A stretch of 63,701 nucleotides of DNA, filler included, from Folioceros fuciformis (lineage: Eukaryota): NCBI GenBank assembly GCA_049999805.1. It is 15 parts of 15 records of this genome, joined end to end, with 100 filler letters (N's around TTAATTAATTAA, not from the genome) between each part and the next. Parts side by side here need not be neighbours in the genome. Positions count along the whole stretch, not along the records: positions 59,206 to 61,680 come from JBNGIO010006721.1; 14 more parts are not named here. One strand, written 5' to 3'. Below, piece after piece: positions 1,371 to 61,780 of this stretch (its first letter is position 1; each line of letters opens with the position of its first letter). The notes below the pieces were generated by a model. The model saw only the letters and a list, made by a program, of their open reading frames with translations. It did not search any database and had not been told where the DNA came from. Position numbers and translations under genes: made by a program.

Positions 1371-1392
1371 ACGCATCCACAAGCACATATCA

Positions 1393-1416
1393 GCAATGCA
1401 ATGCAATGCAATGCAT
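1393..1416. repeat. (GCAAT)n microsatellite in germin 3' UTR
   Basis: gcaatgcaatgcaatgcaatgcat directly after the stop; same in haplotype B near 4901. Confidence 0.7.
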
Positions 1417-2844: not shown

Positions 2845-3053
2845 AGTAACGAAAAGCGGATGCCCTAACTAGCCTGTTGCCCGGCGTCAAGTAGTGTTTA
2901 GGTCATAATATAAATATAAGTATACCCGAACGGTACTTTATCGAAACATCAACCGTCAACCGCCATACCGGTTCACGGGACACGGCCTCATAGGCCCCTC
3001 ACACACGAACACGATGTATCTTTAACCTTTATCTAAACCTTCCTCTCTACGCT
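2845..3053. mobile_element. About 209-bp insertion in the LINE RT, solo-LTR-like, with target-site duplication
   Basis: Flanked by TGGGAG/TGGGAG (or TTGGG/GTGGG). Removing it plus one duplicate restores the 79-nt spacing between accttgca and gt(g/a)tcatc seen in the uninterrupted LINE near 33000-33090. Confidence 0.65.
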
Positions 3054-3154
3054 GTGGGAGAGCATGGCCTCCGGGGAAGTCTTTGTCGCATTGGGAAAAA
3101 CTAGCGTGTCATCAGCAAAATCTAAGATACGCAAATGCTTCCCATCTGGGGCAT

Positions 3155-3406
3155 GAATGCCTTCAATATCAGGGTCTTGTCTAATTGCTCGAAGGAGAAA
3201 GTTAGCAACCATGATAAATCAAAAAGGGGCTAGGGGGCCTGAATGCCTTTAATATCGGGGTCTTGTTTAATTGTTCGAAGGAGAGAGAGTTAGTGATGAC
3301 GATAAATAGAAAAGGGGCCAGGGGAGGCTGAATGCCTTTAATATTGGGGTCTTGTTTAATTGCTCGAAGGAGAAAGTTACTAACGATGATAAGTAGAAAA
3401 GCCACA
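3155..3406. repeat. Tandem triplication (86-89 bp units) of the LINE RT segment PLAPFLFIIV...NIKGIQ
   Basis: gaatgcctt recurs at 3155, 3241 and 3330. Confidence 0.85.
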
Positions 3407-3506: not shown

Positions 3507-4203
3507 ATGAAACCAGCTTCCCCATGCTAAGGACTCGAGGATCTGATGATGCACAGTCACCTCCGTGACTCCCGAGGCCAGCCAGTACTGCCACATGCGG
3601 GGAAAGGAACTGGACGGCTTCCCGGAAACCTACCTGTTCCACCTCAGAGACGCACACTGTATTTTTCTATTTAGTTTTAAGAGATCGGAGATCCCGTGAC
3701 CCCGTGAGGAGAGGGGAAGAGCCCGGAAGAGGGTCCAAAGGGGGAAAAGAAAACGGGGCTTTGACTGGAAGAAGGTTCGCCGTGAACACTTCTCTGACAA
3801 ATGAAGCTGCAGTGGCGTGATCCGTCCCAAAGCTGACCGGCGTCACACGGTTGTCAAACTCCCAAAAAACGACACGGGTCTGGTCTCTGCCGGCGTCAGC
3901 AGTTAGCACTCCTCCTGGCTGCAGCAGTCTCTGGTCCCGTTACGCATCCCAGCTATAAATGACTCTAATCTTGCTGCCCTTTCCGGTCACATCCTAGTCC
4001 CTGTTGTGAAGGCTTCCAGAGGTCCTTCCATCGCCTGAGCTCCCTAGGATCGATATCATCACGGTCGGCACGAGTGAAGGCCTAGCTGTGAATTCTCAAT
4101 TTTTGAGAGCAATCCTTGCCAACCAAGCTCGCCTACAGGTGGTGGAAGGCTGCAACCTTCGGCTGCGCTGTTGCCAGTACTGCACTGCAATTCACGGTCA
4201 TCC

Positions 4204-4878
4204 ATGGCTCGCTATGCCGCATCCCGGAATTTGAATCTCATGGCGGCCGCGTTCCTGGCCGCGTTGCTGGTCACCTGGACGCCCCACTTCAGTTTGGCAG
4301 CCGACGAGGACCCTCTCCAGGACTTCTGCGTGGCCCAAGCGGGCGCTCCCACCATCAACGGCGTCGTCTGCAAACCAGCCGATGAGGTGACGGCAACCGA
4401 CTTCAAGTTCTCGGGCCTCAACGGCCCCGGCAACACCGGCAACAAGTTCAAGGCTGTAGTGACGCCCGCGTCCGTCGCCCAATTCCCGGGCCTCAACACG
4501 CTGGGGATCTCCGCCGCCCGCATTGATTTCGCTGTGGGCGGGCTCAACCCTCCGCACTCCCACCCGAGAGCCACCGAGCTGCTGTTCGTGGTGGAGGGCA
4601 CTCTCGAGGTTGGATTCGTCTCGTCTAACGGGAACACGCTCTTCCAGCAGACGCTCAACAAGGGCGATCTGTTTGTCTTCCCCAGAGGCCTCCTTCATTT
4701 CCAGAAGAACGTCGGCTATGGTCCGGCGTGGGCCGTGGCAGCCCTGGGGAGCCAGAATCCTGGACTGCAGCAGGCAGCTGCCGCTCTCTTTGGCTCCCCG
4801 CTGCCATCGGATGTGCTGCAGCAGACGTTTGGAATCGATGACAAGACAGTCCAGCGGCTGGAGGCCAGTCAGAAGTAG
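4204..4878 (+). CDS. Germin-like protein, haplotype B (allele of 696-1370)
   Basis: Same motifs; differs by two residues (ATDFKF vs ATYFKF, QQAAA vs QQTAA). Fragment 3507-6913 is colinear and nearly identical to 1-3406. Confidence 0.95.
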   Translation: MARYAASRNLNLMAAAFLAALLVTWTPHFSLAADEDPLQDFCVAQAGAPTINGVVCKPADEVTATDFKFSGLNGPGNTGNKFKAVVTPASVAQFPGLNTLGISAARIDFAVGGLNPPHSHPRATELLFVVEGTLEVGFVSSNGNTLFQQTLNKGDLFVFPRGLLHFQKNVGYGPAWAVAALGSQNPGLQQAAAALFGSPLPSDVLQQTFGIDDKTVQRLEASQK

Positions 4879-5834
4879 ACGCATCCACAAGCACATATCA
4901 GCAATGCAATGCAATGCAATGCATGGGCCCTCCGTTTGTTAGCCAGTCCAGTCCATCCATCCGTGACGGTGCCATAGCATAGCATTCATCCACTCGGGAC
5001 AGTCCCCTCGGTCCTGCTCCTGGGCCTGGAGGACGTCGCACTTATTCCACTTTTTCTGAGATGTATTCCCGAATTTATTGGATCACTCGGTACATTATTC
5101 TGTACCCAGCATGTGAGCGTCGTGCGGAAGAAAATGTATAACAAATCAGTCCCTTCAACGTGCCTTCAAGTGTCTCCGGGTGCGACTAAGGTCTAGGGCA
5201 AGCTAAGTAACTAGATTATGTCTCTAATACTCCCTAAGAGTCTACATCGCACATGTCAGGCTACTTTGTTGTTCTCTTTGCTTTCAACACTTTGAAGAGC
5301 CCTAGAAGCTATATGCGTATCAGCCCTTAAGAACAACTCACACAATGTCATATATCATATACGTAGTAGTGGTATGGGAGGTCGATTTATTTGCTTTGAC
5401 CGTTGAACTAAATTTTTGGTGATAAGCTGCTGATAATCATTGAACATCTATCTCGATATGAACCACAAGCTTCTCTTGTGTCATCCCAAGTTTAACAAGG
5501 AATCAAATGCAATCCACAACATGCTACTTGGTGACAATACACAGCTTTGTGGCCATACAATATTATGTCAAATGAATCTCGCGACCATGACCTCTTCTGT
5601 ATTCTTCAAGCCTAGCATGCTCCAGCCCAAGACATCCTTTATATTTATATTCATGCTTTGCATGCGCTCCTCATGTGCCATACGAAAAAGCTTGCATATC
5701 TATCTTGAGAACACATTCATTCATATTCTTTAACATGATATGAGTCTGAGCTTCATGTCTTCACTCTCTCTTTGCTTCTTTAGCAGGTCTATATCTTGGC
5801 TACTTTCATCTAATATGATACATGGCTAAAAACG

Positions 5835-6913
5835 TTTTTTCGCGAACCAAAGAATTCAGATTAAATCAGCACTAGGCTACTCGAGGCTACATTTGTGATA
5901 GCTCGGATCTACATCTGGAGTCCATGCCTCATTTAGCCACTGAGTTGAGTTTTGGGGAAGAAAACACCTGTCACCCCAGTCTCCGTGTCTAATTTGATTA
6001 CTCCGAGGGCTGCTTCAACAGTCGTGGAGGAGGGGCCTACTTAACCCGCCCAAACCCTAAAGACCAAAGAATGTGATTGGTCACAACCAACGTACCATCA
6101 AGATTGAGCTCCAAGAGCCCAAGACTCATAGCTTTCCCGAATGAAGCCAAGGCAAATGAATTTTCCAATCTCCCCATTCTCTTCCGTTTCTTGAAAAGGT
6201 AACCCCAAATACTTGTGAGGAGAGCGAGGTCAGACCCTTGTGATATGACTAATGCACTGAGGTAGCTCTCCCTCCATGTTGATGCATAAGATCTGAGTCT
6301 TCGCCAAGTTAACCTTGCAACCTCAGAGTTTACCAAAAAGTTCAACTTGGGAGTAACGAAAAGCGGATGCCCTAACTAGCCTGTTGCCCGGCGTCAAGTA
6401 GTGTTTAGGTCATAATATAAATATAAGTATACCCGAACGGTACTTTATCGAAACATCAACCGTCAACCGCCATACCGGTTCACGGGACACGGCCTCATAG
6501 GCCCCTCACACACGAACACGATGTATCTTTAACCTTTATCTAAACCTTCCTCTCTACGCTGTGGGAGAGCATGGCCTCCGGGGAAGTCTTTGTCGCATTG
6601 GAAAAAACTAGCGTGTCATCAGCAAAATCTAAGATACGCAAATGCTTCCCATCTGGGGCATGAATGCCTTCAATATCGGGGTCTTGTCTAATTGCTCGAA
6701 GGAGAAAGTTAGCAACCATGATAAATCAAAAAGGGGCTAGGGGGCCTGAATGCCTTTAATATCGGGGTCTTGTTTAATTGTTCGAAGGAGAGAGAGTTAG
6801 TGATGACGATAAATAGAAAAGGGGCCAGGGGAGGCTGAATGCCTTTAATATTGGGGTCTTGTTTAATTGCTCGAAGGAGAAAGTTACTAACGATGATAAG
6901 TAGAAAAGCCACA
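5835..6913 (-). mobile_element. Allelic copy of the LINE fragment, with the same insertion and triplication
   Basis: Nearly identical to 2327-3406. Confidence 0.85.
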
Positions 6914-11714: not shown

Positions 11715-14700
11715 TTACATCATCTTTATTATGCTCTCAAGAGTCTCATAAACCATCCTTCTTTCGGAGTGAAGACTATCTTCTGCTAGAAATGCGTGCA
11801 TCTGGCCGTCCAATTCCATCCATGTCCGGCCAGGTTCCTTGTGGACACCGGATCTGAACATCAGCTTTCTAATTTCTGATCGTTCTTCGAGCATGCCAGC
11901 TGCTGCATAAATATTTGACATGATGATATATGCACCAGCGGTGCTTGGATCCAAGCCGATTATGGCATTGAACGCTCGTCTCCCTAAATCAGTGTTGCCG
12001 AGACGGTTGCAAGCCACAAGGATAGACATCCAGACCTCGAGGCCAGGTTGTGAAGGCATCCTGCTGGTGAAGTTCTCTGCCTCATCCAGGTGCCCAGCTC
12101 GACTGAGAAGGTTCACCATGCAAGCATAGTGGTCCTTGCCTGGGGTGATGTCAAAGGTTTCAGACATCGACTGAAATAGAACTCTGCCTTCATCCAGCAA
12201 GCCCGCGTTGCTGCAGGCCGCAAGAAGGCAGAGGAAAGTGATGGAATCTGGACGACTGCCCTCACTTTGCATTTGAGCAAGTAGCTGGAGGGCCTTGTAG
12301 AAATGTCCATGTTGGGCATAGCCCGCTATCATAGCATTCCATGTCACCAGATCTCTGGTCGAAAATCGATCGAACAATGTCTCTGCATCGTCGATGCTCC
12401 CACATTTAGCGTACATGTCGATCAACGCACTCCGCACTACCACATCTGATTCCAGACCAGCTTGTACAGCTTGAGCATGAATTTGCTTTCCTTGAGGCAG
12501 AGCCACCAGGTTCGAACATGCCTTGAGAATGCTGGCAAGTATCACCTTGTCTGGACGCAGGCTCTCCCTTTGCATCTGCTCAAAGAGGTGGAAGGCATCT
12601 CGTAGCTGCCCTGTCTGGACATATCCTGCTATCATTGCAGTCCAAGAGCCCAAATGCTTGTGAGTCAGTCTGTCGAACATTTTGCGGGCATCATGCAGGC
12701 TTCCGCATCTAGAATACATGTCAATTAGAGAGCTGACTAGATGCAAATCTGCACCGAGTCCGCATTTCATGATGTCAGCCTGGATTAGATTTCCCTGTGT
12801 CAAATCTGCTATGGAAGAGCAGGCCCTAAGAATGCTGAGGAACGTGACCTTGTTAGCACACACTCCCTCCAATTGCATACGACGGTAGAGAGCCAGGGCC
12901 TCAGTAGGATCTCCTTGCTGAGAGTACCCTGCAATGACTGCATTCCACGATGAAACATCTATCCTAGGCAACTTGTCAAAGATTCTACGGGCATCCTCCA
13001 GGTTGCCACATTTCACATAAAAGTCTAGCAGGTTGCGACCAATGTAACTGTTTGTATCAAAGCCAGATTGGACTAATTGGACATGGATAAGCCTGCCGTA
13101 GTCAAAAGCTGCTATAGCCGAACAAGCTCTCAAAACACTATTGTAGGTTCCAGTATCTGGGAGCATACCCACTTCTTGCAACTGCTGGAAAAGCTGGAGG
13201 GCCTCAGTACTCGAACCATTCTGCACATATCCTGCAACCATAGCATTCCACGGCAGCCGATCACACTCCTCATGCCCGTAGAAAACTTTCCTCGCGTCAG
13301 CCAGGCTACCACACTTTGAATACATCTCAATCAGTGTACATCGAATTATATCGTCTGAACCGAAGCCTCCTTTCACGATGTGGTTGTGGATGAGCTGGCC
13401 CTGTTCGAGAGCTTCCAGGGTGGCGCAAGCTTTCACCATGCTAACCAGTGTGAACTCATTTGGCTGCAAACCCTCCTCTTGCATCTGCTGATACAACTGC
13501 ATGGCATTCTGCAAATCACCTTCTTGACAATATCCTGCGATCATTGCTGTCCATGAAACGACATGTTTCATACGAATCTTGTCAAACACTGTGCGTGCTG
13601 CGTCCAGACTTCCACATTTCGCAAACATATCGATAGCACTACTCTCCACGTGGTGGTCCGATTCAAAACCACTTTTGAGGCTGTCACAATAGATCAACTT
13701 GCCCAGCTCCAGGGCTGCAACGCAGGAACATGCTTTCAGGACATTTATGTAGGTGACTCTATCTGGATTTATGCCCTCCTGAAGCATTCTATCGTAATGA
13801 ACAATTGCCTCTTGACCAAGGCCTTGCTGTGCATATCCTGCAATCAATACATTCCATGACACCAAGTCTTTGGCTGGCAGTCTGTCAAAGATGTCCTGAG
13901 CATCGCCCAGACTCCCGCACTTTGAATACAAGTCAATGAGGATGCTGCTAACAAATATATCATCATGAAAGCCATACTCAGCTACAGAGGCATGAATCTT
14001 CCTTCCCTCCGCAACGTCTCCTAACATACAACATAGTTTGAGAATACTCACAAAGGTGAACTGGTCAGGATTCACGCCTTTTGCCCGCATCTCCTGAAAG
14101 AGCTCCAGAGCTTCTTGCCAGAGTCCTTGCTGCGAATATCCTCCAATCATTGTGTTCCATGACACAGCGTCCCGTGCCACCATCGTATCAAACACACTAC
14201 GGGCATCCTCCAGAATTCCACATTTGCAATACATGTCCATAAGAGCATTGCAAACAAATACGTTGGACTGGTAGCCGGCCTCCATGACCTGACCATGAAT
14301 CAGCCTCCCCCTTCCTCCTGCTCCTATGCTCCCACAAGCTTTCAGAATGGCAACGTAAACATACTCATCGGCAGTCACATGAGATCCTTGCATTCGATCG
14401 TAAAGTCTGACAGCCGCTTCAGCCTGGCCATTTCTAGCACACACTGTTATGACTGCAGTCCATGCAAACACATCCGGTGCAGGCAGAGTCTCGAACACCT
14501 GGCTTGCTTCATTAGGTTCTCCACAAATAGCATACATCCGTATCAAATGATTTACCAGAAAGAGATCAGATCCAAGTCCAACCTCGACCATCTTACAGTG
14601 AATCTTCCTCCCAGCCACAGAGTCTCGCTGCCATATGCAACATTGCAGAAGACGGTAGAACATCGTCTTGGAGCATTCGTGGACATGTCGGTGCACCAAT

Positions 14701-14864
14701 GATTCCATGACAATTACGGCTTCCCGTAGACGTCCCTCTTCACATAGTTTCCACAAATCCCCTACGGTACCTCCACTTCCTGCCACGCTGCTGAGTGGTA
14801 AGTGATCCACAACCTCCCACACCCTGACCACCAACTTGATGCCACTCTCAAACGTCCCACACAA
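11715..14864 (-). CDS. PLS-class pentatricopeptide repeat protein with E/E+ extension, no DYW domain (organellar RNA-editing factor type)
   Basis: 1049-codon intronless ORF of P-L-S triplets (LIDMYSKCGSL.DA..VF, VSWNAMIAGY), E motifs (HYACMVNLLSRAG, AYIIMSNIYAAAG), PG box KEPGRTWMEL; true start uncertain. Confidence 0.95.
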   Translation of the reverse strand: MCGTFESGIKLVVRVWEVVDHLPLSSVAGSGGTVGDLWKLCEEGRLREAVIVMESLVHRHVHECSKTMFYRLLQCCIWQRDSVAGRKIHCKMVEVGLGSDLFLVNHLIRMYAICGEPNEASQVFETLPAPDVFAWTAVITVCARNGQAEAAVRLYDRMQGSHVTADEYVYVAILKACGSIGAGGRGRLIHGQVMEAGYQSNVFVCNALMDMYCKCGILEDARSVFDTMVARDAVSWNTMIGGYSQQGLWQEALELFQEMRAKGVNPDQFTFVSILKLCCMLGDVAEGRKIHASVAEYGFHDDIFVSSILIDLYSKCGSLGDAQDIFDRLPAKDLVSWNVLIAGYAQQGLGQEAIVHYDRMLQEGINPDRVTYINVLKACSCVAALELGKLIYCDSLKSGFESDHHVESSAIDMFAKCGSLDAARTVFDKIRMKHVVSWTAMIAGYCQEGDLQNAMQLYQQMQEEGLQPNEFTLVSMVKACATLEALEQGQLIHNHIVKGGFGSDDIIRCTLIEMYSKCGSLADARKVFYGHEECDRLPWNAMVAGYVQNGSSTEALQLFQQLQEVGMLPDTGTYNSVLRACSAIAAFDYGRLIHVQLVQSGFDTNSYIGRNLLDFYVKCGNLEDARRIFDKLPRIDVSSWNAVIAGYSQQGDPTEALALYRRMQLEGVCANKVTFLSILRACSSIADLTQGNLIQADIMKCGLGADLHLVSSLIDMYSRCGSLHDARKMFDRLTHKHLGSWTAMIAGYVQTGQLRDAFHLFEQMQRESLRPDKVILASILKACSNLVALPQGKQIHAQAVQAGLESDVVVRSALIDMYAKCGSIDDAETLFDRFSTRDLVTWNAMIAGYAQHGHFYKALQLLAQMQSEGSRPDSITFLCLLAACSNAGLLDEGRVLFQSMSETFDITPGKDHYACMVNLLSRAGHLDEAENFTSRMPSQPGLEVWMSILVACNRLGNTDLGRRAFNAIIGLDPSTAGAYIIMSNIYAAAGMLEERSEIRKLMFRSGVHKEPGRTWMELDGQMHAFLAEDSLHSERRMVYETLESIIKMM

Positions 14865-15034
14865 CAGTCTACGCTCGCAACTGCAACTGAAAACTCGTAC
14901 CTTAAGCCTTCGGAGTTTGGGGATTGCATACAGGNNNNNNNNNNNNNNNNNNNNNNNNNNNNNNNNNNNNNNNNNNNNTTAATTAATTAANNNNNNNNNN
15001 NNNNNNNNNNNNNNNNNNNNNNNNNNNNNNNNNN

Positions 15035-38734: not shown

Positions 38735-40312
38735 TTTCCGGATGTGGAAGCTGCAAGATGGGCGGAGGCCAGCTTCATGCAGCAGGACAGGGGCGGGCTT
38801 GGGCCGGGTCCTGCGTGGCAGCCGCACAGCATTGAGGACTACCCGGTGAGCGTGCTGTCCGAGAGCCAGTCGGAGGGTGAGCTGCCCGAGGACAGCGACT
38901 ACTTCAGCGGGGACTCCGACTCGGAGGTGGAGGGCTTTCAGGCCACGAGCAAGTGGTTCCAGCCCTTCTTCGATGCGCTTAGGAATCTGTCCGTGGAGCA
39001 GATGACGGAGTACGATAGGCAGTGGCATTGCCCTGCATGCAAGGGCGGGGTGGGTGCTATCGACTGGTACCGCGGCCTGCAGCCCTTGCTTACGCATGCG
39101 CACGCCATCAGGGCGAAGCGAGTGAAGCTGCACAGGACTTTTGCCAGTCTGCTGGAGGACGAGCTCAGGCAACGGGGCGCTGCGGCGTCGGCGGCGGTGG
39201 CCGGGAAGTTTGGGAAGTGGAAGGGGCTGCGGGAGACGGACGAGAGTTTGAATCCGCTGGTTCTGTGGCCGCCTATGGTGGTGGTGCAGAACACGAAGCT
39301 GGAGATGGATGAGCAGGATAAGTGGATTGGGATGGGGAACCAGGAGCTGCTGGACCATTTCCGGGAGTACAATGCCTTGAAGGCGAGGCATGCTTACGGG
39401 CCTCAGGGCCACCGTGGTATGAGCATTGTCATATTTGGGGACTCCCCGTCCGGGTACTACGATGCCCAGAGGTTGGATAGGGCGTTTAAGGAGGCGAGAA
39501 GGGGCAGGGATGATTGGTGCCGGCTGTCCAAGCAACTCTACCAGCCGGGTAGTAGTGGGCAGCGTATTTTGTATGGTTACCTGGCAACCAAGGAAGATAT
39601 AGAGGTGTTTAACAGGCACGGAAGGGGGAAAATGAACGTCAAGTGTGAGATGAAGAGACTGAACGAAACCGTCCTGGAGCCCATGCGGCAGCAAGATGAG
39701 GACTTTCATCAGGTCACTTATCTCAAGGACAAGGTTCAAAAGGCTCAGCAACATCGGAAGGAGTTGGAGAGGACCGTGTGTGTCATTACACGGCAGCTCA
39801 GGCTGCGAGAGGAGGAGATAAAGGAGATCCAGATGCGCGCGGAAGAGCAAAATGTCAAGAATAAGAAGAGTTTAGAGGACATGGAGAAGTATTTTGAGGA
39901 AATGCTTCAGACGTACAGGGACAAGGTGGCTTTGGAGGAGAACAAGGAGCAGGAGAAGCTGCGAGAAGCGTATGATAAGAATATAGAGGCTTGTCAGCGT
40001 TTAGAGACGAAAGCTTCAAAGCTCGAAGGTGCTGAACATCAGTTGGAGCAACGGAAGCTGGAGGAAGAGATTGCTAGGCAATCCCGTCTGGTTGAAGCAG
40101 GGCTAAGGCGGGCTGAGGAGTATGAGTCTCGAAAGAACGAGATTCAGCAGCAGTTTCATTTGCGGAAATTGGCATTAAGGCAGCAGCAACACGAGGAAAC
40201 ACTTGCGCTGGAGAGGGAGCTTGAAAGTGAAAGAGGCAATATTCTCAATGACTATAAGACGGACAGTCAAAGGCTTTTCACCCAGTTTGGTAGTTACCAG
40301 AACTCTGGCTAG
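38735..40312 (+). CDS. SGS3: SUPPRESSOR OF GENE SILENCING 3 homolog (zf-XS, XS, coiled coil), 5' truncated, no intron in view
   Basis: RQWHCPACKGGVGAIDWYRGLQPLLTHA; VLWPPMVVVQNT...WIGMGNQEL...ARHAYGPQGHRGMS; LYGYLA; long coiled-coil C-terminus. Confidence 0.95.
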   Translation, partial: FPDVEAARWAEASFMQQDRGGLGPGPAWQPHSIEDYPVSVLSESQSEGELPEDSDYFSGDSDSEVEGFQATSKWFQPFFDALRNLSVEQMTEYDRQWHCPACKGGVGAIDWYRGLQPLLTHAHAIRAKRVKLHRTFASLLEDELRQRGAAASAAVAGKFGKWKGLRETDESLNPLVLWPPMVVVQNTKLEMDEQDKWIGMGNQELLDHFREYNALKARHAYGPQGHRGMSIVIFGDSPSGYYDAQRLDRAFKEARRGRDDWCRLSKQLYQPGSSGQRILYGYLATKEDIEVFNRHGRGKMNVKCEMKRLNETVLEPMRQQDEDFHQVTYLKDKVQKAQQHRKELERTVCVITRQLRLREEEIKEIQMRAEEQNVKNKKSLEDMEKYFEEMLQTYRDKVALEENKEQEKLREAYDKNIEACQRLETKASKLEGAEHQLEQRKLEEEIARQSRLVEAGLRRAEEYESRKNEIQQQFHLRKLALRQQQHEETLALERELESERGNILNDYKTDSQRLFTQFGSYQNSG

Positions 40313-40624
40313 GTGGCAGGGTAGTAGTATTCAGCAAATCTCCATAATGTCCCTTTTTTTTGTTTTAACAGTTCAGTGTCTAGTTCTGCGTTTGGTTTGC
40401 ATCAGAGCTTTGCTCTTGCAAGCTGTGATCAGTTGAAGACAGTCACCGTCTAGGGCAGAAACTTCGGGATGCTGTATTCAATAAACTGTACTTGATGGAT
40501 GATGAATTAATAATCTGAACTAAATGGATGATTAAATACCCTTGGATCTGGGAAACCGGCAAGGTTGTTTTTGGCAGGACTTCGAATGAGTACCAACGCC
40601 AAACACGTGAATCCACGCTCCCAT

Positions 40625-42305
40625 TCAATGCTTCTGATTAAGTCTCAAGCTCTTAACTCCCCAAGGGACATCTTCACAGTGCCGGATAAATGGAATGTCC
40701 GCACTGAAGTCTGAAAAGCCTCCATCGGAAGTGCAACCCACCAATGGTGCCGCATGAAAGCAAGGCTCCATGGAATGAGATGGGAAGCAGACAGGCAGAG
40801 GCATACTCTCGCTTCCATCTTCGCCTTTGCTCAGGACGTATGGTTGAACGCCAGCCAGTCCCTGCGCGGAGTAGCCGAAAGTCGACCACGAACTCGTGAT
40901 CAGCTCATCGCTCAAGGACAGCAGCAGTATTTCCGTCCAAGCAAGCATGTTATGCGCTTTGCTCTCAGAGTTCTGCTCGCCTTCACGACTCAATTGGTGG
41001 AGGCTCACCACCTCTCCGTTCTCTGTTGGCCCCTGTAGATAAAGGTGTTTCAATTCATCATGATACTGTCCTTTCAGAGAAGTCACGAAGACGGTCACCC
41101 TTGTTTTTGATGGGACTGCACGAGGCAAGACACCATTTCGTTGGAGCGAGAGAATCCTCTGTGATGATCTTCCAGCTGAAGGACTCCCTGGGCCAGCACT
41201 AAAGGACACATTCGGAAGCACCCTGTTCTGGATGCCGCAGAGCAGAGCTTGCTCGGACACGTAGTCAAATCTGTCCCCATAAGATCCAAAGGTGCGCAGC
41301 TGCAGGCCCACCCTCCGATCTGCCGTACGTAGATAAGCATCAAAGTAACGCGTCACAACCTCCCAGATCTGGTTCGCGGGATGGAACAAATACCTTGCTA
41401 AAAGATGGAAAACGGTATCTGGTTGTGGGAAAAGCGTTTGCAGCTGACTGTGGAAGTTGTCCATAGCATACAGGGCAGGCGCAAAGTACTGATTGGATCT
41501 TATGAAGAGCCACGAAACAGAGGCCAGTCTCTGTTGCTGTATCTCGTCAAAGAAGAGATTGTCATGACAATTTGAGCTGTGAGTCAGATGAATATAAGCA
41601 AAAGGAACGGCCCGCCCGGTGGTCTTATCCCGAAACTTCTGGTTCATTGTTTCCCAGGAGCCAGAACTCACCAACTGACCATGTCGCAAGGGGTGAGTTT
41701 CATTCAACTGCTGTAACCAATCTTGAGGCAACCGGTGAGACAGAACCCAAGAAGATCCAGAAAAGGGCTCGCAGAAGAAGGCGGGCAAGTGACCACTGCT
41801 GCCAATGAGGAGCACCCTATTTGTGAGCAGCGAGTACAGAAAAGCCGAAGCGATTGACACCAAGTTGTTTCCCAACCCGCTGTACTGAATCCAGACAAGG
41901 AAGCGGCAGTCGGTGACATTCGAATTTGTGATGAGGGTCCCAAACAGCTGTTGCCATCTCTGTTCAGCAGTCGAACCTTCCATTCTGTCCAACAGATTTG
42001 AGACCAACTGAGTGCATTCCGCATGATGGGAGGCGTAACTCCTCAACCTTGAAATCAAGCTTGCCGATGGTCTGTGTTTTGTTGCTTTGTAGTAAGCCTT
42101 CTGTTCAGTCCGGCTCCTGCAAGAAGCGTCCGGAGGGAGCAAATCTCCGAAAAGCCCGCCCTCTACGACAACAGAAGAGCAGCAGAGTCAGATCCGCACC
42201 TCAAACCGTCCAATCTCACATGACTTGAATTCAAGCATCCTACCCCCAACCTTGGTAGCGCCAATCGGTGAAGTAATTCGCTTGCGACGCCACGGTGGCA
42301 CTGAG
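40625..42305 (-). CDS. GT37 xyloglucan/arabinogalactan alpha-1,2-fucosyltransferase, 5' truncated
   Basis: SGLGNNLVSIASAFLYSLLTNRVLLI, FFCEPFSGSSW, VFHLLARYLFHP.N, RVGLQLR, LSLSDELITSSWSTFGY, SMEPCFHA, HCEDVPWG; intron about 42165-42251. Confidence 0.93.
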
Positions 42306-55251: not shown

Positions 55252-55580
55252 NNNNNNNNNNNNNNNNNNNNNNNNNNNNNNNNNNNNNNNNNNNNTTAAT
55301 TAATTAANNNNNNNNNNNNNNNNNNNNNNNNNNNNNNNNNNNNNNNNNNNNAGTCTCGTCTAGGCAGATCCCCGGCCGGGTACACTGTACGTATGTACAT
55401 ATGACCACAGCACCCTGAAGGGGTGAACCTTGAGCCGTCCTGCCTGAAGGGGTGAGCCGTCCTATAGTACCTGTGGGCGAGCTGTCGGACTGATACTTCA
55501 GACCTCGCGACCATGTGAGGGATATTAGGTAGTAACTTTATGTTTCAGTATAGATATACAAAACAGTTAATTACTTGTCA

Positions 55581-58500
55581 AGTAACACCCCCTTCAACGG
55601 GGTGGGGCAGAACCACGCAGTCAGAAGCAAAGGCAAGCGTGAGTTATTAAACACCGGACACAGCACTAGGCCTCCCGGTAGCCCGCCTTCATCTTCGAGG
55701 AGGACTCGCAGCCAGCACCCTTGCTGCTGCTTTTTATTCAAACCACGAGTCAACAAGAACATATAGAGTTGGAGGGCTAGAGAGGAGCTTAGCTCTCCCT
55801 TCTCTTGCCCTAGAGAGAACTCTCCATCTTTGCCTAAGATAAGGAGCTTAGCTCTCCCTTCTCTTGACCTAGAGAGAACTCTCCATCTTTGCCTAAGCTA
55901 GGAGCTTAGCTCTCCCTTCTCTTGACCTCCTCCCACAGCTCCTTNNNNNNNNNNNNNNNNNNNNNNNNNNNNNNNNNNNNNNNNNNNNNNNNNNNNNNNN
56001 NNNNNNNNNNNNNNNNNNNNNNNNNNNNNNNNNNNNNNNNNNNNCTAGGAGCTTAGCTCTCCCTTCTCTTGACCTCCTCCCACAGCTCCTTTATAGCACA
56101 CCTCTCATGTGCTCAGCCCATGTGCTCAGCCCAAGCAACACATGCTCTCAAGGCATAGCCCAAGCAACACATGCTCTCAAGGCGTAGCCCGAGCACTGGG
56201 TGCTCTCGAGGCTGTGAGGAGATATTGATCTCCACTCAACTGTACTCAACTGTCCTTAGCCCTTGGCTAGGTCCCCTTTTTATACACAAGCTCTAGTCAC
56301 TAACTTAGCAACTACTTAAACCTTAAGCTATTATTCACTACCACACACTTTTTCCTAAGGCTGCATGCTTCTCAGGCTCCTAGTAATATGCTCTGCTAAA
56401 CATGCCTCTGCATGGAGCTTACTTGCTTGGCACTCAAACTAGCGTTGTTACTTCTCCCCCCAGTAGGAAAGAATCATTGTCCTCAGTGATAACCAGTGTA
56501 ATGAGCAATCATCCAGGAGCCTCTCTGGATATCCTCTAATGTTACGGAAACTGGTGTTGAGATCCCACGCAACTTTACCATGTATTGTGGTAGAGTTCCA
56601 TGTATCGTAGCCACGCTACCTTCTGCAAGGAATTCCTCAATCTCTTGCAGTCCTTGATCATGCTACATTAAGATACTGTACTTCTTCCTATCCATGTCTT
56701 CTTTCTCTTTGCCTAGCACAAATGGTTTCAACATAGATACATGAAACACATTGTGTGCAAAAATCCAGTCAGGCAAGTCCAACTTGTAAGCCACTTCTCC
56801 AATGCGCTTCAAGACAACATATGGACCTCCATATATTGGTCTCAACTTCAAAGACAAACCTTGGGGTAGTGTGAAATGCTTCAGTTTCACCCAAACCTTA
56901 TCCCCAACATTGAAGATAGTTTCTCTCCTGTGCTTATCAGCATATCTCTTTTGACGTGCTTGAGCCTTGGCTAATATCTTTTGGGCAACCTCATTCCTAG
57001 CCTTCAACTGCTCAACAAATTGGCGTGGATCTCCGGTGGTAGTGTTGAAAACTTCAGCATTTAACATGGATACCACATCCAAAGGTGAATTTCCACTCAT
57101 CTCAAAGGGACTACATCCCAGGGGGCTATGTATTGTGTTATTGTAACAAAACTCCACATCATGAAGATGATCAGCCCAATCTCTCTGATCAATCTGCACA
57201 TAGTGCCTCAAATATTCTTCTTGGATTCGGTTGACTCGCTCAATTAATCCATCAGTATATGGATAGTATGCAATACTCATACATAGCTGCACATTCAAAC
57301 TCTTCATCAAGTGCTGCCAGAACTCTCCTATGAATCCAGGATCTTGATCGCTCACAATCTGCACAGGCAAGCCATGATACTTGTACACATACTTTTTGAA
57401 CAAGTTTGCTGCCTCAGAAGCGGTCACTCGCTTCTTAATGGGAATGAAGTGTGCTTGTCTAGTGAATCTATCCACCACTGTCATAATAGCAGTAAATCCA
57501 TTACTGGGAAGCAAGGGTATGATGAAGTCCATAGAAATACTTTTCCATGGGCCTCTTGGGATAGGTAGGGGCTGTAATAAACTCCTCCACTTAGCCTGCT
57601 CAACCTTATTCTACTAACAAATAGCACATGCTTTGACATTGTCCAATGTATCTTGATACATTCCTTGCCAATAGAACAGTTTCCTCAACTTCTCATAAGT
57701 TGAATCACCTCCACGGTGACCAACACTTGGTACATCATGACACTCAGTAAGCAATTTCCTCTTCAAGCCTATAGAGTTAGGGATCACAACTCTCTTCTGT
57801 TTGTATATCAACAAACCATCTATGAGTTTGAACTTGCTTCCTTTCTCTACCACCCCATTCATCCAGTCCTACACTTCAAGATCTTGCAGATAAGCTTCTC
57901 TTATCTCTTTGTGAGCATCCAAAGGTTCAATCACAGTTGCCATTGCTTCCATTTCTTGACTTTGCTTGTGACTCAGCGCATTTGCAACCTTATTCTCTTT
58001 TCCAAGTTTATAACTAAGAGTCACGTCATACATAGCTAGGAAATCTTGCCATCTAGCTTGCCTCGCATTCAACTTCAACTGGTTTGAGAAGTACATCGTG
58101 CTGATATTATCAGTATACAGCACAAAAGACCTACCCAAGAGATAGTGTCTCCAAGCCTTCAGACAGTGGATGACAACACTTATTTCCTTCTCATAGGTGG
58201 GATACCTCTTCTCACAATGATGCAACTTTCTTGACTCAAAAGCTAATTGCTTTTGGTCCTGCATCAAAACTCCACCTATAGCCACATCTGAGGCATCACA
58301 ATACACTTCCACATCTCTCTTGGGGTCATACATTCCCAACACTGGAGTNNNNNNNNNNNNNNNNNNNNNNNNNNNNNNNNNNNNNNNNNNNNNNNNNNNN
58401 NNNNNNNNNNNNNNNNNNNNNNNNNNNNNNNNNNNNNNNNNNNNNNNNCTCCACCTATAGCCACATCTGAGGCATCACAAAACACTTCCACATCTTTCCT

Positions 58501-59058
58501 GGGGTCATACATTCCCAACACCGGAGTCGTGCTCAACTTCTTCTTCAAGCATTCAAAGGCTACTTGATACTCAGCATCCCATTTCCAAGCTTTTGCTGTT
58601 TTCAAGAGGTCAGTTATGGGGGCTGCTATCTTAGCAAACATATGTACAAACTTCCTATACACAGAAGCCAAACCCATAAAACTTCACACCTCATGAATAT
58701 TTCGAGGGGGCTGCCAATCTTGAATGGCCTTAACTTTTTCAAGATTGATCCCGATGCCCTCGGCAGAGACAATGAAACCTAAGAATGGGAATTCTGTCTT
58801 GACAAAGTCACACTTCTTGATTGCCAAGAACAAAGAATTCTCTCTTAGTCTCTGTAACACTTTCCTCAAGTGTTCAACATGTTCCTCCAAGGTATGACTA
58901 TAGATCAAAATGTCATCGAGATAGATTACAACACACTTGTCCACCATATCTATGAATATAATATTCATAAGAGTCTGAAATGTAGCAAGTGCGTTAGAAA
59001 GTCCAAATGGCATGACAAGGAACTCAAAAGATCCATACCTTGTTCTACATGCTGTTTT
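55581..59058 (-). mobile_element. Gypsy element, 3' half: RT, RNase H, integrase, decayed chromodomain, PPT (about 56453-56460), 3' LTR (55581-56452)
   Basis: MPFGLSNA, IYLDDILIYS, YCDASDVAIGGVLMQ, ECHD...GHRG, MDFI...VVDRF, IVSDQD, GPYVV..RIGEVAYKLDLP, EIEEFLAE...QYMVKLRG; GAGGACAA then GGGGGAGA before the LTR. Confidence 0.95.
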
Positions 59059-59205
59059 TGTGGAAGTTAATTAGGTTTAATTAACTTAAATAGGCAGGCT
59101 TTAGANNNNNNNNNNNNNNNNNNNNNNNNNNNNNNNNNNNNNNNNNNNNTTAATTAATTAANNNNNNNNNNNNNNNNNNNNNNNNNNNNNNNNNNNNNNN
59201 NNNNN

Positions 59206-61596
59206 TGAACACCGGCAGCTAACATCTCCTCAAAACAAGCTAGCGCCTTGCGACCTTCATCACAAGCACCATACCCAGCAATCAGGGCTGTCCATGTAAC
59301 CACATTCTTTGTGTTCATGCTGTCAAAAACCTGGCGAGCATCTTCCAGCTCACCACATTTTGCATACATGTCCACCAAGCAGGTTCCCACCACAACATCA
59401 TCCAGCACACCTCTGTTGACAATCAGTGAGTGCAGCTCCCTGCCCTTCTGCAAGGCACCAGTGCTTCCACACGCCTTCAGAATGCACGCAAAAGTCACAT
59501 CATCGGCCAAAACGAAGCCTGCCTCCTCCATCTGTCCATACACAACAAGTGCCTGTTGGCCGAGTCCTTGCCGAGCATACCCAGCGATCATGGCTGTCCA
59601 TGTCACCACATCCTTCGAGGCCATGCCGTCCAAAACCTGGCGGGCACATTGCAGCTCACCACATTTTGCATACATGTCCACCAGGCAGTTTCCCACCACC
59701 ATATTATCCAGCAGTTCTCTTTCGACAATCTGTGAGTGAAGCTCCCTGCCCTTCTGCAAGGCACCAGTGCTTCCACACGCCTTCAGAAGGCAAGCAAAAG
59801 TAACACAGTCAGCCAAAACCAGGCCTGCCTGCTCCATCTGTCCATACACAACAAGGGCCTCTTCACCGAGTCCTTGCTGTGAATACCCAGCGATCATGGC
59901 TGTCCAGGTCACCACATCCTTCGAGGCCATGCCGTCGAAAACCTGGCGGGCACATTCCAGCTCACCGCATTTTGCATACATGTCCACAAGGCAGTTTCCG
60001 ACCACTATATTATCCAGCAAACCTCTCTTGACAATCTGTGAGTGAAGCTCCCTGCCCTTCGGCAAGGCACCAGTGCTTGCACACGCCTTCAAAAGGCACG
60101 CAAAAGTAACATCATTAGCCAAAACGAGACCTGCCTCCTCCATCTGTCGATACACAACAAGCGCCTCTTCGCCGAGTCCTTGTTGNNNNNNNNNNNNNNN
60201 NNNNNNNNNNNNNNNNNNNNNNNNNNNNNNNNNNNNNNNNNNNNNNNNNNNNNNNNNNNNNNNNNNNNNNNNNNNNNNNNNNNNNGCCTGCCTGCTCCAT
60301 CTGTCCATACACAACAAGTGCCTCTTCGCCGAGTCCTTGTTGTGCATACCCAGCGATCAGGGAATTCCATGTCACCACATCCTTCGTGTTCATGCTATCA
60401 AAAACCTGGCGTGCATCTTTCATTCGGCCACATTTTGCATACATGTCCACCAAGCAGTTGTTAGCAAACAAGTCAGTACGGAAGCCACTGCGCACCAAAT
60501 CGCGGTGCACTGTTCTGCCAGACTCTAAGTCGGCAGCAAATGCACAAGCTTGAAGCGCGGCTACAAAGACATAACCATTCGCCTTCACTTCTGACCTACG
60601 CATTTCATGGTACAGTTGTATGGCCTCCTTCGGCTTCCCGTGCTTAGCATGTGCAGAGATTATGGAAAACCACATGAAGACATCCGGTTTCCCTACCCTG
60701 TTGAACACATCCATTGCCTCCTTTAGCCTACCTCCGCATGCATACATGCGCAAGATATGGTTCCCCAAATATGCATTCGACTCGTACCCAAGTTTGACTG
60801 TGAGATCATGAACTCGTCGCCCCACCACCAAATCCTTCTTAGCCGTACAGAGTTTTAACACTGTGTAAAACAGAGACTGAGAAACGCCAGAGCCTGACTG
60901 CACCAGACATTCCAGGGCTCCAACGGCCTCAGAAAGCTTCCCCTGATGACATAACATGCTCACGCTTGCAGCAGTTACGACGTCCGTTTCCAATTCTGCA
61001 CACCTGCCAGATCCACGCTTATACAGAGAGCTGCACTCGAAAGAAGAAACTCCATGGCCCATTGGATGTGGAACTGCTGGGTTTCTTACACTGCTGCCCC
61101 TGGAGCCCATTTCACCACCTGTACGCCTTCCAGGTTCAGGATTATCTGGAGAGCTCAAGTTGGAAGCAGAGGAACCGAGACCCATCTGCATATCCAAGGA
61201 GACGAGCTGCTCATCAACCCAAGCTGGCTTAAACCTGTTGTCCAACCACAGCACCTCGCCGGACCCCTTACGCCGGAAGTGAGGGGAACGGGAGCTCTTC
61301 TTGTCTCGTCTGTTATCCCACCACATGGTAGGATCCAGAAAAAGTTGTTGCCACAAGTGCTCCTGCTGCTCCTGGAAACTACCAGCATCGTCGATTAACC
61401 TGTCCCTTCCCACACACGTTCTCGTTCTCGGAGGTGGAAGTGCTGGGTTCCTGACACTCCTGCACCTGGAGGCTTTGTTTGCAAAGGGTTCAGTCCCGAA
61501 GCTCAGGTGAGCGGGGGTTCCTGGTAGAGTCCTTGTACACCCACCAATTCCAATTTGTTGGGTCCACAACAGGTCCGGTTGCCATACTGTGGCCAT
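59206..61596 (-). CDS. PLS-class PPR protein with an N-terminal OSB-type PDF motif; 3' truncated, 100-N gap inside
   Basis: ATG 61596; LWQQLFLDPTMWWDNRRDKKSSRSPHFRRKGSGEVLWLD...PAWV at 61204-61356 in the same ORF as P-L-S repeats; near-identical 306-bp triplets at 59206-60185. Confidence 0.9.
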
Positions 61597-61780
61597 CTTT
61601 CAGGGACCGCTGTCGGAAGATGACTCTCACAAAAGTCTCGTCTAGGCAGATCCCCGGCCGGGTACACTGTACGTATGTACNNNNNNNNNNNNNNNNNNNN
61701 NNNNNNNNNNNNNNNNNNNNNNNNTTAATTAATTAANNNNNNNNNNNNNNNNNNNNNNNNNNNNNNNNNNNNNNNNNNNN

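What the first reader, a model, noticed from the sequence alone, without database searches (positions are those of the whole stretch)
59206..61596. PPR protein fused to an OSB-type PDF ssDNA-binding motif
Seen: one uninterrupted ORF from ATG 61596 carries LWQQLFLDPTMWWDNRRDKKSSRSPHFRRKGSGEVLWLDNRFKPAWVDEQL (61204-61356) ahead of a PLS PPR array. Known: this matches the roughly 50-aa PDF motif (W..FF.NP..WWDNR..K.....PDFKHK..GEALWL...P.WV) of plant Organellar Single-stranded DNA-Binding proteins, where it follows an OB fold and binds ssDNA; PLS PPRs are organellar RNA-recognition/editing factors. Here there is no OB fold, the motif is N-terminal, and PDF reads PHF. Inference: a hybrid organellar factor that could couple ssDNA (nucleoid, R-loop, transcription bubble) binding to sequence-specific RNA recognition. 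I do not know a functional description of this architecture.
Basis: partly seen in the sequence, partly recalled or inferred. Interest (0 to 1): 0.85.

Follow-up and report, generated by a model that had tools for sequence, protein, structure and literature searches.

The report
PPR protein with OSB-type PDF domain
A plant organelle RNA-binding (PPR) gene starts with a small nucleic-acid-binding module known from organellar DNA-maintenance proteins, and this combination proves to be a conserved family in a moss, lycophytes and ferns for which I found no description in print.

Summary
Residues 77-135 of the minus-strand ORF that starts at 61596 are a full-length OSB-type PDF domain: 74 bits against a profile of 401 PDF instances, and 571 database hits, many named OSB1/2/3 and carrying an SSB OB fold. 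A PLS-class PPR array follows in the same frame. There is no OB fold.

Two corrections are needed. The window is 15 small scaffolds joined by N linkers, and this gene sits on a 2.5-kb scaffold (59206-61680). The ORF is broken by a 100-N gap (60186-60285) and is cut off at the scaffold end, so its C-terminus (E or DYW) is unknown.

The fusion is not a singleton. I found 44 database PDF-PPR proteins with 1-3 N-terminal PDFs, from Physcomitrium, Selaginella, Diphasiastrum (at least 25), Adiantum, Ceratopteris and Pteridium. At least two of them end in DYW. Within the family the PDF is the best-conserved segment. AlphaFold2 models it as a confident small alpha/beta domain, joined to the PPR solenoid by a disordered linker of about 65 residues.

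The window's PHF (Asp to His) is a minority variant; most related copies read PDF.

Eight literature searches and two moss PPR catalogues gave no description of this architecture. The function is inferred, not shown: an accessory binder of single-stranded nucleic acid.

The parts
59206..61680 (.). The scaffold that holds the gene. It is bounded on both sides by N44-TTAATTAATTAA-N44 joiners.
   Evidence: N-run map and split of the window into 15 scaffolds
61594..61596 (-). First ATG of the ORF. An in-frame TGA lies at 61602-61600. Only 84 nt of upstream sequence exist on the scaffold.
61369..61596 (-). N-terminal 76 residues, predicted disordered. It may be an organelle presequence; this was not tested.
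   Evidence: AF2 pLDDT below 50 for residues 1-71; mean pairwise identity 0.26 among 23 PDF-PPR proteins
61192..61368 (-). PDF domain, residues 77-135.
   Evidence: 74.4 bits over profile positions 2-58 of 58; 16 of 18 strongly conserved columns kept; AF2 pLDDT 90.8 for residues 66-140, helix-strand-strand-helix
61279..61281 (-). Codon 106, CAC (His), at the position of the signature Asp of 'PDF'.
   Evidence: Asp in 380 of 401 PDF instances and in 76 of 80 PPR-linked instances. In related sequence of three runs the base giving GAC (Asp) holds 2517 of 2838, 3834 of 4425 and 261359 of 270016 of the summed depth.
60982..61191 (-). Linker, residues 136-205, predicted disordered and poorly conserved.
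   Evidence: pLDDT below 50 for 141-158, 166-168 and 173-203; alignment occupancy 0.28 and identity 0.27; lowest summed depth in run X1, about 281
60286..60981 (-). First block of PPR repeats, residues 206-437, up to the assembly gap.
   Evidence: Pfam PPR, PPR_2, PPR_1 and PPR_3; helical hairpins from residue 209 at pLDDT 93-98
60186..60285 (.). 100-N assembly gap inside the near-identical PLS triplets. The true length is unknown.
59206..60185 (-). Continuation of the PPR array: three 102-aa P-L-S triplets plus the start of a fourth. It is open at the scaffold end, so the C-terminal E/DYW part is not available.
   Evidence: Pfam PPR 1.6e-52; 306-nt direct repeats at 87-93% identity; triplets printed
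61430..61471 (-). Upstream copy of a 42-nt direct repeat (encodes ...SVRNPALPPP...).
   Evidence: family D3, 86% identity, spacing 366 nt
61064..61105 (-). Downstream copy of the 42-nt direct repeat (encodes ...SVRNPAVPHP...). The two copies bracket the PDF domain.
   Evidence: the VRNP strings occur only in the window protein at residues 48 and 170 in this context

Best explanation
This is an incompletely assembled but open gene for a PLS-class pentatricopeptide-repeat protein. It belongs to a conserved 'PDF-PPR' family of non-seed land plants. Its layout is: about 70 disordered N-terminal residues, one OSB-type PDF domain (residues 72-140), a flexible linker of about 65 residues, and then the PLS repeat solenoid.

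Shown here: the domain identities, the order of the parts, the recurrence of the fusion and the conservation of the PDF.

Inferred: the PDF works as a tethered, sequence-unspecific binder of single-stranded nucleic acid. It would add affinity or capture range to the sequence-specific PPR tract on its organellar RNA target. Most likely it contacts the same RNA beside the PPR footprint, much as the N-terminal RRM does in PPR4-type proteins. The RNA process served would be editing in members that end in DYW, and splicing or another RNA step in plain PLS members.

I put the domain architecture at about 0.95 and this particular mechanism at about 0.4. The confidence figure given is a blend of the two.
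For: PDF identity:
- 571 phmmer hits at E<=1e-3.
- 42 of the best 150 carry Pfam SSB N-terminal to the match.
- Many hits are named OSB1/2/3.
- The window scores 74.4 bits end to end against a profile of 401 instances.

Fusion in one frame:
- 437 uninterrupted codons span the PDF, the linker and seven-plus PPR hairpins.
- A 277-nt Logan contig of run X1 (60929-61205, 5 differences) bridges the PDF C-terminal helix and the first PPR helix. That run may be the source sample.

Recurrence:
- 8 of the best 150 phmmer hits and 28 of the best 120 profile hits carry PPR domains.
- In all there are 44 database PDF-PPR proteins: 16 with one PDF, 21 with two and 7 with three. The PDFs are N-terminal in 43 of the 44.
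- Sources: Physcomitrium patens, Selaginella moellendorffii, Diphasiastrum complanatum, Adiantum capillus-veneris, Ceratopteris richardii, and two Pteridium aquilinum transcriptome ORFs.

Selection on the motif:
- Among 23 aligned PDF-PPR proteins the mean pairwise identity is 0.53 in the PDF, 0.47 in the PPR part, 0.27 in the linker and 0.26 in the N-terminus. Six of the 13 invariant columns lie in the PDF.

Fold:
- pLDDT is 90.8 for the PDF alone. In the 437-residue model the PDF and PPR parts are confident and the segments between them are below 50.

Nucleic-acid binding of the PDF:
- Reviews (passages read) state that the PDF of AtOSB1 suffices for ssDNA binding while its OB fold does not bind (PMC6963530, PMC6451138).
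- PPR-linked PDFs are more basic than the rest: mean net charge +2.84 (n=80) against -0.31 (n=588).

Link to RNA work:
- P0165 and P0234 end in ...CSCGDYW and carry PF14432.
- A review passage records an N-terminal RRM on maize PPR4 that acts on intron RNA (PMC9459714).
Against: - No binding, localisation or expression data exist for any PDF-PPR protein that I could find.
- A review (PMC4166229) states that OSB1 and OSB2 prefer ssDNA to RNA. This favours the ssDNA rival over RNA contact.
- The window copy has His where 95% of PDFs have Asp.
- Its closest relative found, P0270, has a degraded PDF (CWDIR, RDF; 47 bits). The motif may therefore be under relaxed constraint in this sub-lineage.
- The fold has no solved relative that could show a binding mode.
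- The 3' end and the gap are missing, so an intact full-length gene is not demonstrated.
Confidence: 0.5

Rival explanations
1. ssDNA tether. The PDF keeps the ssDNA preference it has in OSB proteins and anchors the PPR protein to single-stranded regions of the organellar nucleoid, such as transcription bubbles, R-loops or replication and recombination intermediates. RNA recognition would then happen co-transcriptionally.
For: Reviews state that the AtOSB1 PDF suffices for ssDNA binding and that OSB1/2 prefer ssDNA over dsDNA or RNA. The PPR-linked PDFs keep nearly all signature columns. The long disordered linker would allow the two domains to hold different molecules at once.
Against: No data exist for PPR-linked PDFs. 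They form their own group apart from the PDF of the OSB-type protein of the same species, Diphasiastrum P0119. They also differ in charge (+2.84 against -0.31), so their specificity may have shifted. PPR proteins are known as RNA binders (general knowledge).
Confidence: 0.3
2. Protein-interaction module. In the PPR context the PDF no longer binds nucleic acid. Instead it docks the protein to partners (OSB, other nucleoid or RNA-processing proteins) or mediates self-association.
For: This rests only on indirect points. The domain is small, rich in aromatic residues (8 of 59 residues are W, F or Y) and separately folded on a flexible tether. Many members carry 2-3 copies.
Against: The only activity reported for the PDF in the passages I read is ssDNA binding. 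The higher positive charge of PPR-linked PDFs fits nucleic-acid contact better. No partner is known.
Confidence: 0.12
3. This particular copy is a young, decaying paralogue of an expanded family. The architecture is real, but the window gene no longer functions.
For: His replaces the signature Asp. Most related copies in three sequencing runs read Asp, as do 76 of 80 PPR-linked PDFs. The stretch belongs to a multi-copy family: 1197, 1477 and 9072 contig pieces at 90% likeness or more were laid in runs X2, X1 and X5. The closest relative, P0270, has a degraded PDF. The gene is seen only in part.
Against: There are 437 plus 326 codons without a stop or frameshift. The PDF still scores 74 bits, within the range of other members. 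16 of 18 conserved columns are kept.
Confidence: 0.15
4. Assembly or gene-model chimera that joins an OSB gene fragment to a PPR gene.
For: The assembly is highly fragmented, with gaps and collapsed repeats.
Against: The PDF, the linker and the first PPR repeats lie on one N-free stretch in one frame. The same order occurs in chromosome-scale assemblies of five other species and in two fern transcriptome ORFs. PPR-linked PDFs form their own sequence group.
Confidence: 0.02

Closest known systems
[quoted passage not shown]
   Same: The same roughly 55-residue PDF domain with the signature W..LF.NP..WWDNR..K..P..PDFKHK..GEALWL...P.WV. The window keeps 16 of 18 strongly conserved columns. The domain can be repeated in both families.
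   Different: OSBs have an SSB-like OB fold followed by C-terminal PDFs (42 of the best 150 hits carry Pfam SSB). Here there is no OB fold, the PDF is N-terminal, and a PPR array follows. PPR-linked PDFs group apart from OSB-type PDFs, including that of Diphasiastrum's own OSB-type protein P0119, and they are more basic.
PLS-class PPR proteins (PLS, E and DYW types; organellar RNA editing and splicing factors)
   Same: P-L-S triplets of 102 aa and typical motif sequences. Family members end in E or DYW domains.
   Different: The additional domains catalogued for PPR proteins in the two moss reviews I read in passages are RRM, LAGLIDADG, SMR, NYN, CBS and SAP. A PDF is not among them, and the six moss PLS-type proteins are listed without any extra domain.
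PPR4-type proteins (N-terminal RRM plus PPR array)
   Same: A single-strand nucleic-acid-binding domain sits N-terminal to a PPR tract. The review passage says maize PPR4 acts by direct interaction with intron RNA.
   Different: The accessory fold is unrelated (RRM against PDF). PPR4 is P-class, not PLS. This is an analogy of design, not homology.
Physcomitrium patens 680-aa PLS-type PPR (P0365, XP_024399509)
   Same: It has the same order of parts: presequence, one PDF (residues 64-122, 60 bits), linker, then L-S-P repeats. It is the experimentally most tractable member.
   Different: Its PDF is divergent (WADVR, PDW). It is 28% identical to the window protein in alignment A3. It ends without E or DYW. 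I could not settle which catalogued PpPPR it is; by my reading of its repeats it fits the bead pattern of PpPPR_31 or PpPPR_25.

Membership tests
PDF domain (as found in OSB proteins) | Significant end-to-end sequence match to PDF motifs of proteins that are OSBs by name and architecture | tested here: met
   phmmer gave 571 hits at E<=1e-3, including proteins named OSB1/2/3 that carry Pfam SSB. The window scores 74.4 bits over positions 2-58 of a 58-position profile.
PDF domain (as found in OSB proteins) | Signature residues, including the Pro-Asp-Phe triplet that names the motif | tested here: inconclusive
   16 of 18 columns conserved at 60% or more are kept. Pro and Phe are kept, but Asp is His, whereas Asp occurs in 380 of 401 instances. 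Most related copies in the sequencing runs read Asp.
PDF domain (as found in OSB proteins) | Binds single-stranded DNA | not testable with these tools
   This is known only for Arabidopsis OSBs, from review passages. The primary paper is not held.
OSB protein family | SSB-like OB fold N-terminal to the PDF motif(s) | tested here: not met
   No Pfam match on residues 1-149 at E<=1. Residues 1-71 are modelled as disordered. It is not an OSB family member; it shares only the PDF module.
PLS-class PPR protein | Tandem PPR motifs | tested here: met
   Pfam PPR 1.8e-29 and 1.6e-52 on the two parts. Helical hairpins run from residue 209 at pLDDT 93-98.
PLS-class PPR protein | Alternating P, L and S variants (triplet of about 102 aa) | tested here: met
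   Direct repeats of 306-nt period. The three triplets are printed in register.
PLS-class PPR protein | C-terminal E1/E2 or DYW extension, which decides the sub-type and any editing role | not testable with these tools
   The scaffold ends inside the array at 59206. Relatives vary: some end in DYW, some in E, some are plain PLS.
PLS-class PPR protein | Import into mitochondria or plastids | not testable with these tools
   No targeting predictor was on hand. The N-terminal 71 residues are disordered.
PDF-PPR family (proposed here) | One to three PDF domains N-terminal to a PLS array in one polypeptide, with the PDFs grouping with other PPR-linked PDFs | tested here: met
   The window's nearest PDF rows include P0270, P0159 and P0003, all PPR-linked. 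All 74 PPR-linked rows lie in one split of 79 rows (SH-like support 86). The label needs 5 changes on the tree against 68 when shuffled.

The most novel reading that the evidence does not exclude
PDF-PPR proteins are an ancient class of organellar RNA factors, older than the split of mosses and vascular plants. In this reading a module derived from the ssDNA-binding PDF recruits editing and splicing PPRs to nascent transcripts at the nucleoid. This built-in helper would do in spore-bearing plants what separate helper proteins do in seed plants, and it would have been lost in seed plants.
Probability: 0.2. Interest if true: 0.8.

Novelty: new variant of a known kind. Interest (0 to 1): 0.62.

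Why it matters
PPR proteins are the main specificity factors for RNA editing, splicing and stability in plant organelles, and their accessory domains define what they do. This finding adds a PDF, a module so far tied to mitochondrial and plastid DNA maintenance, to that list.

It also shows that the combination is conserved from a moss to ferns and is much expanded in a lycophyte. Pfam has no model for the PDF, so domain-based catalogues miss it.

One member sits in Physcomitrium patens, where gene targeting is routine. The question of whether the PDF binds RNA or ssDNA, and whether it couples RNA processing to the nucleoid, can therefore be tested directly.

The result also widens the known distribution and likely functions of the PDF fold, which has no solved structure.

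Tried and rejected
- Word-indexed search with residues 60-140, near lengths: 6 candidates, none scored. The exhaustive phmmer search showed this was a sensitivity limit.
- Own genome: none is held, so paralogues could not be counted directly.
- PDB by sequence: best E 0.19, irrelevant.
- Foldseek against PDB with the PDF model: no match at E<=0.001.
- VIA-align wide: best Z 4.2, none at 5 or above. This says nothing on whether the fold is new.
- Expression: no RNA holder listed. The one certain RNA run (X24, raw reads) laid 0 reads and is no test. X2 and X5 are only guessed to be RNA. There is no verdict on transcription of this locus.
- Depth is summed over contigs, and the tool warns that it is no copy number. 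I use it only to say that the stretch is multi-copy and that Asp is the majority at codon 106.
- Primary OSB paper (Zaegel et al. 2006): not held by DOI, PubMed id or PMC id. What I say about PDF biochemistry comes from review passages.
- Assigning the moss protein to a PpPPR number: unresolved. The pattern fits PpPPR_31 or PpPPR_25.
- 42-nt repeats flanking the PDF as a trace of insertion or unit duplication: considered, not followed up.
- Chimeric assembly: considered and rejected (see rivals).
- Single origin of the fusion: only suggested. The tree has 54 columns, was made with FastTree and is unrooted. Just one OSB-type PDF from a species that also has PDF-PPRs could be named as a control (P0119). 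No AU test was run.
- Absence from seed plants: not shown. Only the best 150 of 571 hits and the best 120 of 812 hits were visible.
The broad PPR surveys (for example Cheng et al. 2016, cited in PMC9459714; Gutmann et al. 2020, recalled) were not read, and their tables might mention the motif.
Full report
**1. What the window is.** The 63.7-kb window is not one locus. It is 15 short scaffolds joined by N44-TTAATTAATTAA-N44 spacers. The finding lies on a 2475-bp scaffold, 59206-61680, which also holds a 100-N assembly gap at 60186-60285. No whole genome is held for it.

**2. Check of the observation.** On the minus strand an ORF starts at ATG 61596, with an in-frame TGA two codons upstream. It runs 437 codons to 60286, where the gap begins. 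After the gap the PPR frame resumes at 60185 in a different phase, because the 100 N are a placeholder. It stays open for 326 codons to the scaffold end at 59206. 'Uninterrupted ORF' is therefore true only for the first 437 codons. The gene is incomplete inside the gap and at its 3' end.

Pfam finds PPR families from about residue 230 onward in the first part (PPR 1.8e-29) and all along the second part (1.6e-52). It finds nothing at E<=1 on residues 1-149, so no SSB/OB fold. The array is PLS-class. Direct repeats with a 306-nt period, that is 102 aa or one P-L-S triplet, are 87-93% identical to each other (printed). This explains the collapsed assembly at the gap.

**3. Is the motif a PDF motif?** Yes.
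- phmmer with residues 66-140 against 1.84 billion representative proteins gave 571 hits at E<=1e-3 and 141 at E<=1e-10. Many have 2-13 matched stretches.
- I scanned all 150 listed hits with Pfam: 36 at E<=1e-3 and 114 at E<=1e-5. 42 carry the SSB OB-fold family N-terminal to the match, 8 carry PPR families, one carries a kinesin motor, and the rest have no solid domain.
- Source names include 'OSB1, mitochondrial-like', 'protein OSB3, chloroplastic/mitochondrial' and 'organellar single-stranded DNA binding protein 3'.
- I built a local profile from 401 instances in these proteins. It scores the window at 74.4 bits over positions 2-58 of 58.
- A six-frame scan of the whole window finds only this site (i-E 1.2e-22).
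- Of the 18 columns conserved at 60% or more, the window keeps 16. The exceptions are Asp to His in the eponymous P-D-F (Asp in 380 of 401 instances) and Lys to Arg just after it.
- Pfam has no model matching the PDF itself. This is probably why annotation pipelines do not flag it.

**4. The fusion is a family.**
- The eight PPR-bearing hits come from Adiantum capillus-veneris (2), Ceratopteris richardii, a Pteridium aquilinum transcript, Selaginella moellendorffii and three unnamed Logan contigs.
- A profile of nine PPR-linked PDFs, searched against longer proteins, gave 812 hits. Of the best 120, 28 have PPR domains, and 25 of these are from the lycophyte Diphasiastrum complanatum.
- That list is ranked by summed score, so it shows only proteins with several PDFs. 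Single-PDF members rank lower and were mostly not visible.
- A search with the 437-residue N-terminal part found Diphasiastrum PPRs as the best named relatives, at 35-38% identity over 82% of the query. By my profile, 12 of the 120 listed hits have a PDF.
- One of them, P0304, shares a 90% cluster with a RefSeq protein of the moss Physcomitrium patens (P0365, 680 aa). This is a plain PLS-type protein with a divergent PDF at residues 64-122.
- In total I hold 44 database PDF-PPR proteins: 16 with one PDF, 21 with two and 7 with three. The PDFs end by residue 342 in all but P0179, which has a second PDF at 678-736. I suspect that model merges two genes; I did not check it.
- P0165 and P0234 end in the canonical ...CSCGDYW and carry the DYW family PF14432. 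Many others have the E motif.
- Two members are ORFs of fern transcriptome contigs (P0085, P0159). In a fern, then, the PDF and PPR parts are transcribed together.

**5. Conservation.** In an alignment of the window protein with 22 PDF-PPR proteins, six of the 13 invariant columns fall in the PDF (W82, D94, R96, L116, W117, W126).

| Segment | Mean pairwise identity |
|---|---|
| PDF | 0.53 (full occupancy) |
| PPR part | 0.47 |
| Linker | 0.27 (occupancy 0.28) |
| N-terminal 76 residues | 0.26 |

**6. Relationship of PPR-linked and OSB-type PDFs.** I built a FastTree tree of 384 thinned PDF instances over 54 columns.
- The label 'PPR-linked' (74 rows) needs 5 changes, against a mean of 68 in shuffles.
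- The smallest split that holds all 74 rows has 79 rows and SH-like support 86.
- Of the five other rows in that split, three are short fragments. One of them (P0103) runs into a PPR motif and is named a PPR protein by its source.
- The PDF of Diphasiastrum's own OSB-type protein (P0119, SSB plus PDF) lies outside this split. The grouping is therefore not simply taxonomic.
- This suggests one or a few old fusion events followed by duplication of the PDF within proteins.
- The alignment is short, the tree is unrooted, there is only one same-species control, and I ran no AU test. I treat a single origin as a lead, not a result.
- PPR-linked PDFs are more basic than the rest: mean net charge +2.84 (n=80) against -0.31 (n=588).

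**7. Structure.** AlphaFold2 on residues 66-140 with a 23-row alignment gives mean pLDDT 90.8. The order of elements is helix 5-22, strands 27-29 and 42-44 (with a short third strand), and helix 62-73. On the 437-residue part with 23 rows, residues 1-71, 141-158, 166-168 and 173-203 fall below pLDDT 50. The PDF (about 72-140) scores 82-96 per ten-residue block, and the PPR hairpins from residue 209 score 93-98. The picture is a small folded domain on a flexible tether in front of the solenoid.

**8. The PHF variant and copy number.** Logan contigs of three runs (coded X1, X2, X5) cover all 30 bins of 60286-61680 at 90% likeness or more. They do so with 1477, 1197 and 9072 short pieces, so the stretch belongs to a multi-copy family in those organisms.
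- In X1 the summed depth is about 281 over the linker (60991-61178), 3650-3790 over the PDF core (61226-61319) and up to 16600 over the PPR part.
- The tool warns that such sums are not copy numbers, so I read them only qualitatively.
- At 61281, the first base of codon 106 on the minus strand, the alternative base turns CAC (His) into GAC (Asp). It holds 2517 of 2838 depth in X1, 3834 of 4425 in X2 and 261359 of 270016 in X5.
- Among 80 PPR-linked PDFs, 76 have Asp and 2 have His. PHF is thus a minority variant of this copy.
- The closest relative I found, P0270, is 58% identical over the first PPRs. It has a more degraded PDF (47 bits, CWDIR, RDF).
- This keeps open the possibility that the motif is losing constraint in this sub-lineage or that this copy is decaying. 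Even so, 763 codons are open.

**9. Mechanism.** The domain order and its conservation are shown. The rest is inferred.
- Review passages state that the PDF of AtOSB1 is sufficient for ssDNA binding, that its OB fold does not contribute, and that OSB1 and OSB2 prefer ssDNA to dsDNA or RNA (PMC6963530; PMC4166229; PMC6451138).
- PLS PPRs recognise RNA base by base and, with E/DYW domains, direct C-to-U editing. The plain PLS-type moss proteins PpPPR_9 and PpPPR_31 are mitochondrial splicing factors (PMC9459714 passages).
- I therefore take the PDF to be a tethered, unspecific single-strand binder that supports the PPR tract. It would act either on the same RNA (my preferred reading, about 0.4; compare the N-terminal RRM of PPR4) or on nucleoid ssDNA for co-transcriptional recruitment (about 0.3).
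- A protein-docking role (about 0.12) and a dead copy (about 0.15, for this locus only) remain possible.

**10. Is it in print?**
- Full-text searches found only OSB reviews and nothing that links the PDF to PPR proteins. The searches were: 'PDF motif' with OSB1 and pentatricopeptide; with 'organellar single-stranded DNA' and PPR; 'PDF motif' alone (5 papers, 3 relevant); OSB, PPR, fern and ssDNA-binding; pentatricopeptide, lycophyte, OSB and DYW; WWDNR, PDF-PPR, PPR-PDF, OSB-PPR, PPR-OSB and OSB-like; Diphasiastrum, pentatricopeptide and RNA editing.
- The two Physcomitrium PPR catalogues were read in passages. PMC9459714 lists RRM, LAGLIDADG, SMR, NYN, CBS and SAP as additional domains. Neither it nor PMC3858427 gives any extra domain for the six PLS-type proteins.
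- The library lacks most subscription journals, supplements were closed, and the primary OSB paper was not held. 'Not described' therefore means 'not found in these searches'.

**11. Verdict.** The window copy is one fragmentary, slightly aberrant member of a conserved PDF-PPR family of spore-bearing land plants. I rate it a new variant of a known kind: a PPR protein with a so far uncatalogued accessory domain. It is of solid interest to organelle RNA biologists, and it is directly testable in Physcomitrium.

Noticed in passing
window 1-63701: The window is a chain of 15 unrelated short scaffolds (1.4-9.3 kb) joined by N44-TTAATTAATTAA-N44 spacers. Neighbourhood across these joints has no biological meaning.
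   Followed up: yes
window 1-3406 and 3507-6913: Two scaffolds are 99.2% identical over their full length (3408 aligned columns). Each carries a cupin/germin-like ORF (Cupin_1 1.3e-46). They are probably two haplotypes or a collapsed duplicate.
   Followed up: partly
window 11715-14933 (-): A second, long PLS-class PPR gene: at least 1072 aa, with an E motif near the C-terminus (2.6e-14). It is open at the scaffold end on its 5' side. No PDF lies in the part present.
   Followed up: partly
window 59206-60459: The PLS triplets of the PDF-PPR gene are near-identical tandem copies (306-nt period, 85-93% identity between most copies). This points to recent internal duplication of whole triplets. 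The assembly gap falls inside them.
   Followed up: partly
window 61064-61105 and 61430-61471: A 42-nt in-frame direct repeat (86% identity, 366 nt apart) brackets the PDF domain. It could be a remnant of a duplicated linker-PDF unit or of the event that brought the PDF in.
   Followed up: no
P0043 (Coptis chinensis, 1526 aa) and P0050 (Striga hermonthica, 1063 aa): PDF repeats also occur in front of a kinesin motor domain (P0043). They also occur in a protein named 'Interactor of constitutive active ROPs 2' that has an SSB domain (P0050). These may be merged gene models or further PDF fusions.
   Followed up: no
P0001 (719 aa), P0002 (Kingdonia uniflora, 1160 aa): Some proteins carry 9 to 13 tandem PDF domains, far more than the one to four described for Arabidopsis OSBs in the reviews read.
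   Followed up: no
window 55352-59105: Fragments of a Ty3/gypsy-type retroelement: an integrase core and a Tf2-1 SH3 domain at 56663-57610 (-), and reverse-transcriptase/RNase H-like ORFs at 57869-59013 (-). Two 100-N gaps lie within them.
   Followed up: no
window 38735-42187: One scaffold holds an XS/zf-XS domain ORF (+ strand) and a xyloglucan fucosyltransferase ORF (- strand, 3.6e-116). Both are ordinary plant genes.
   Followed up: no
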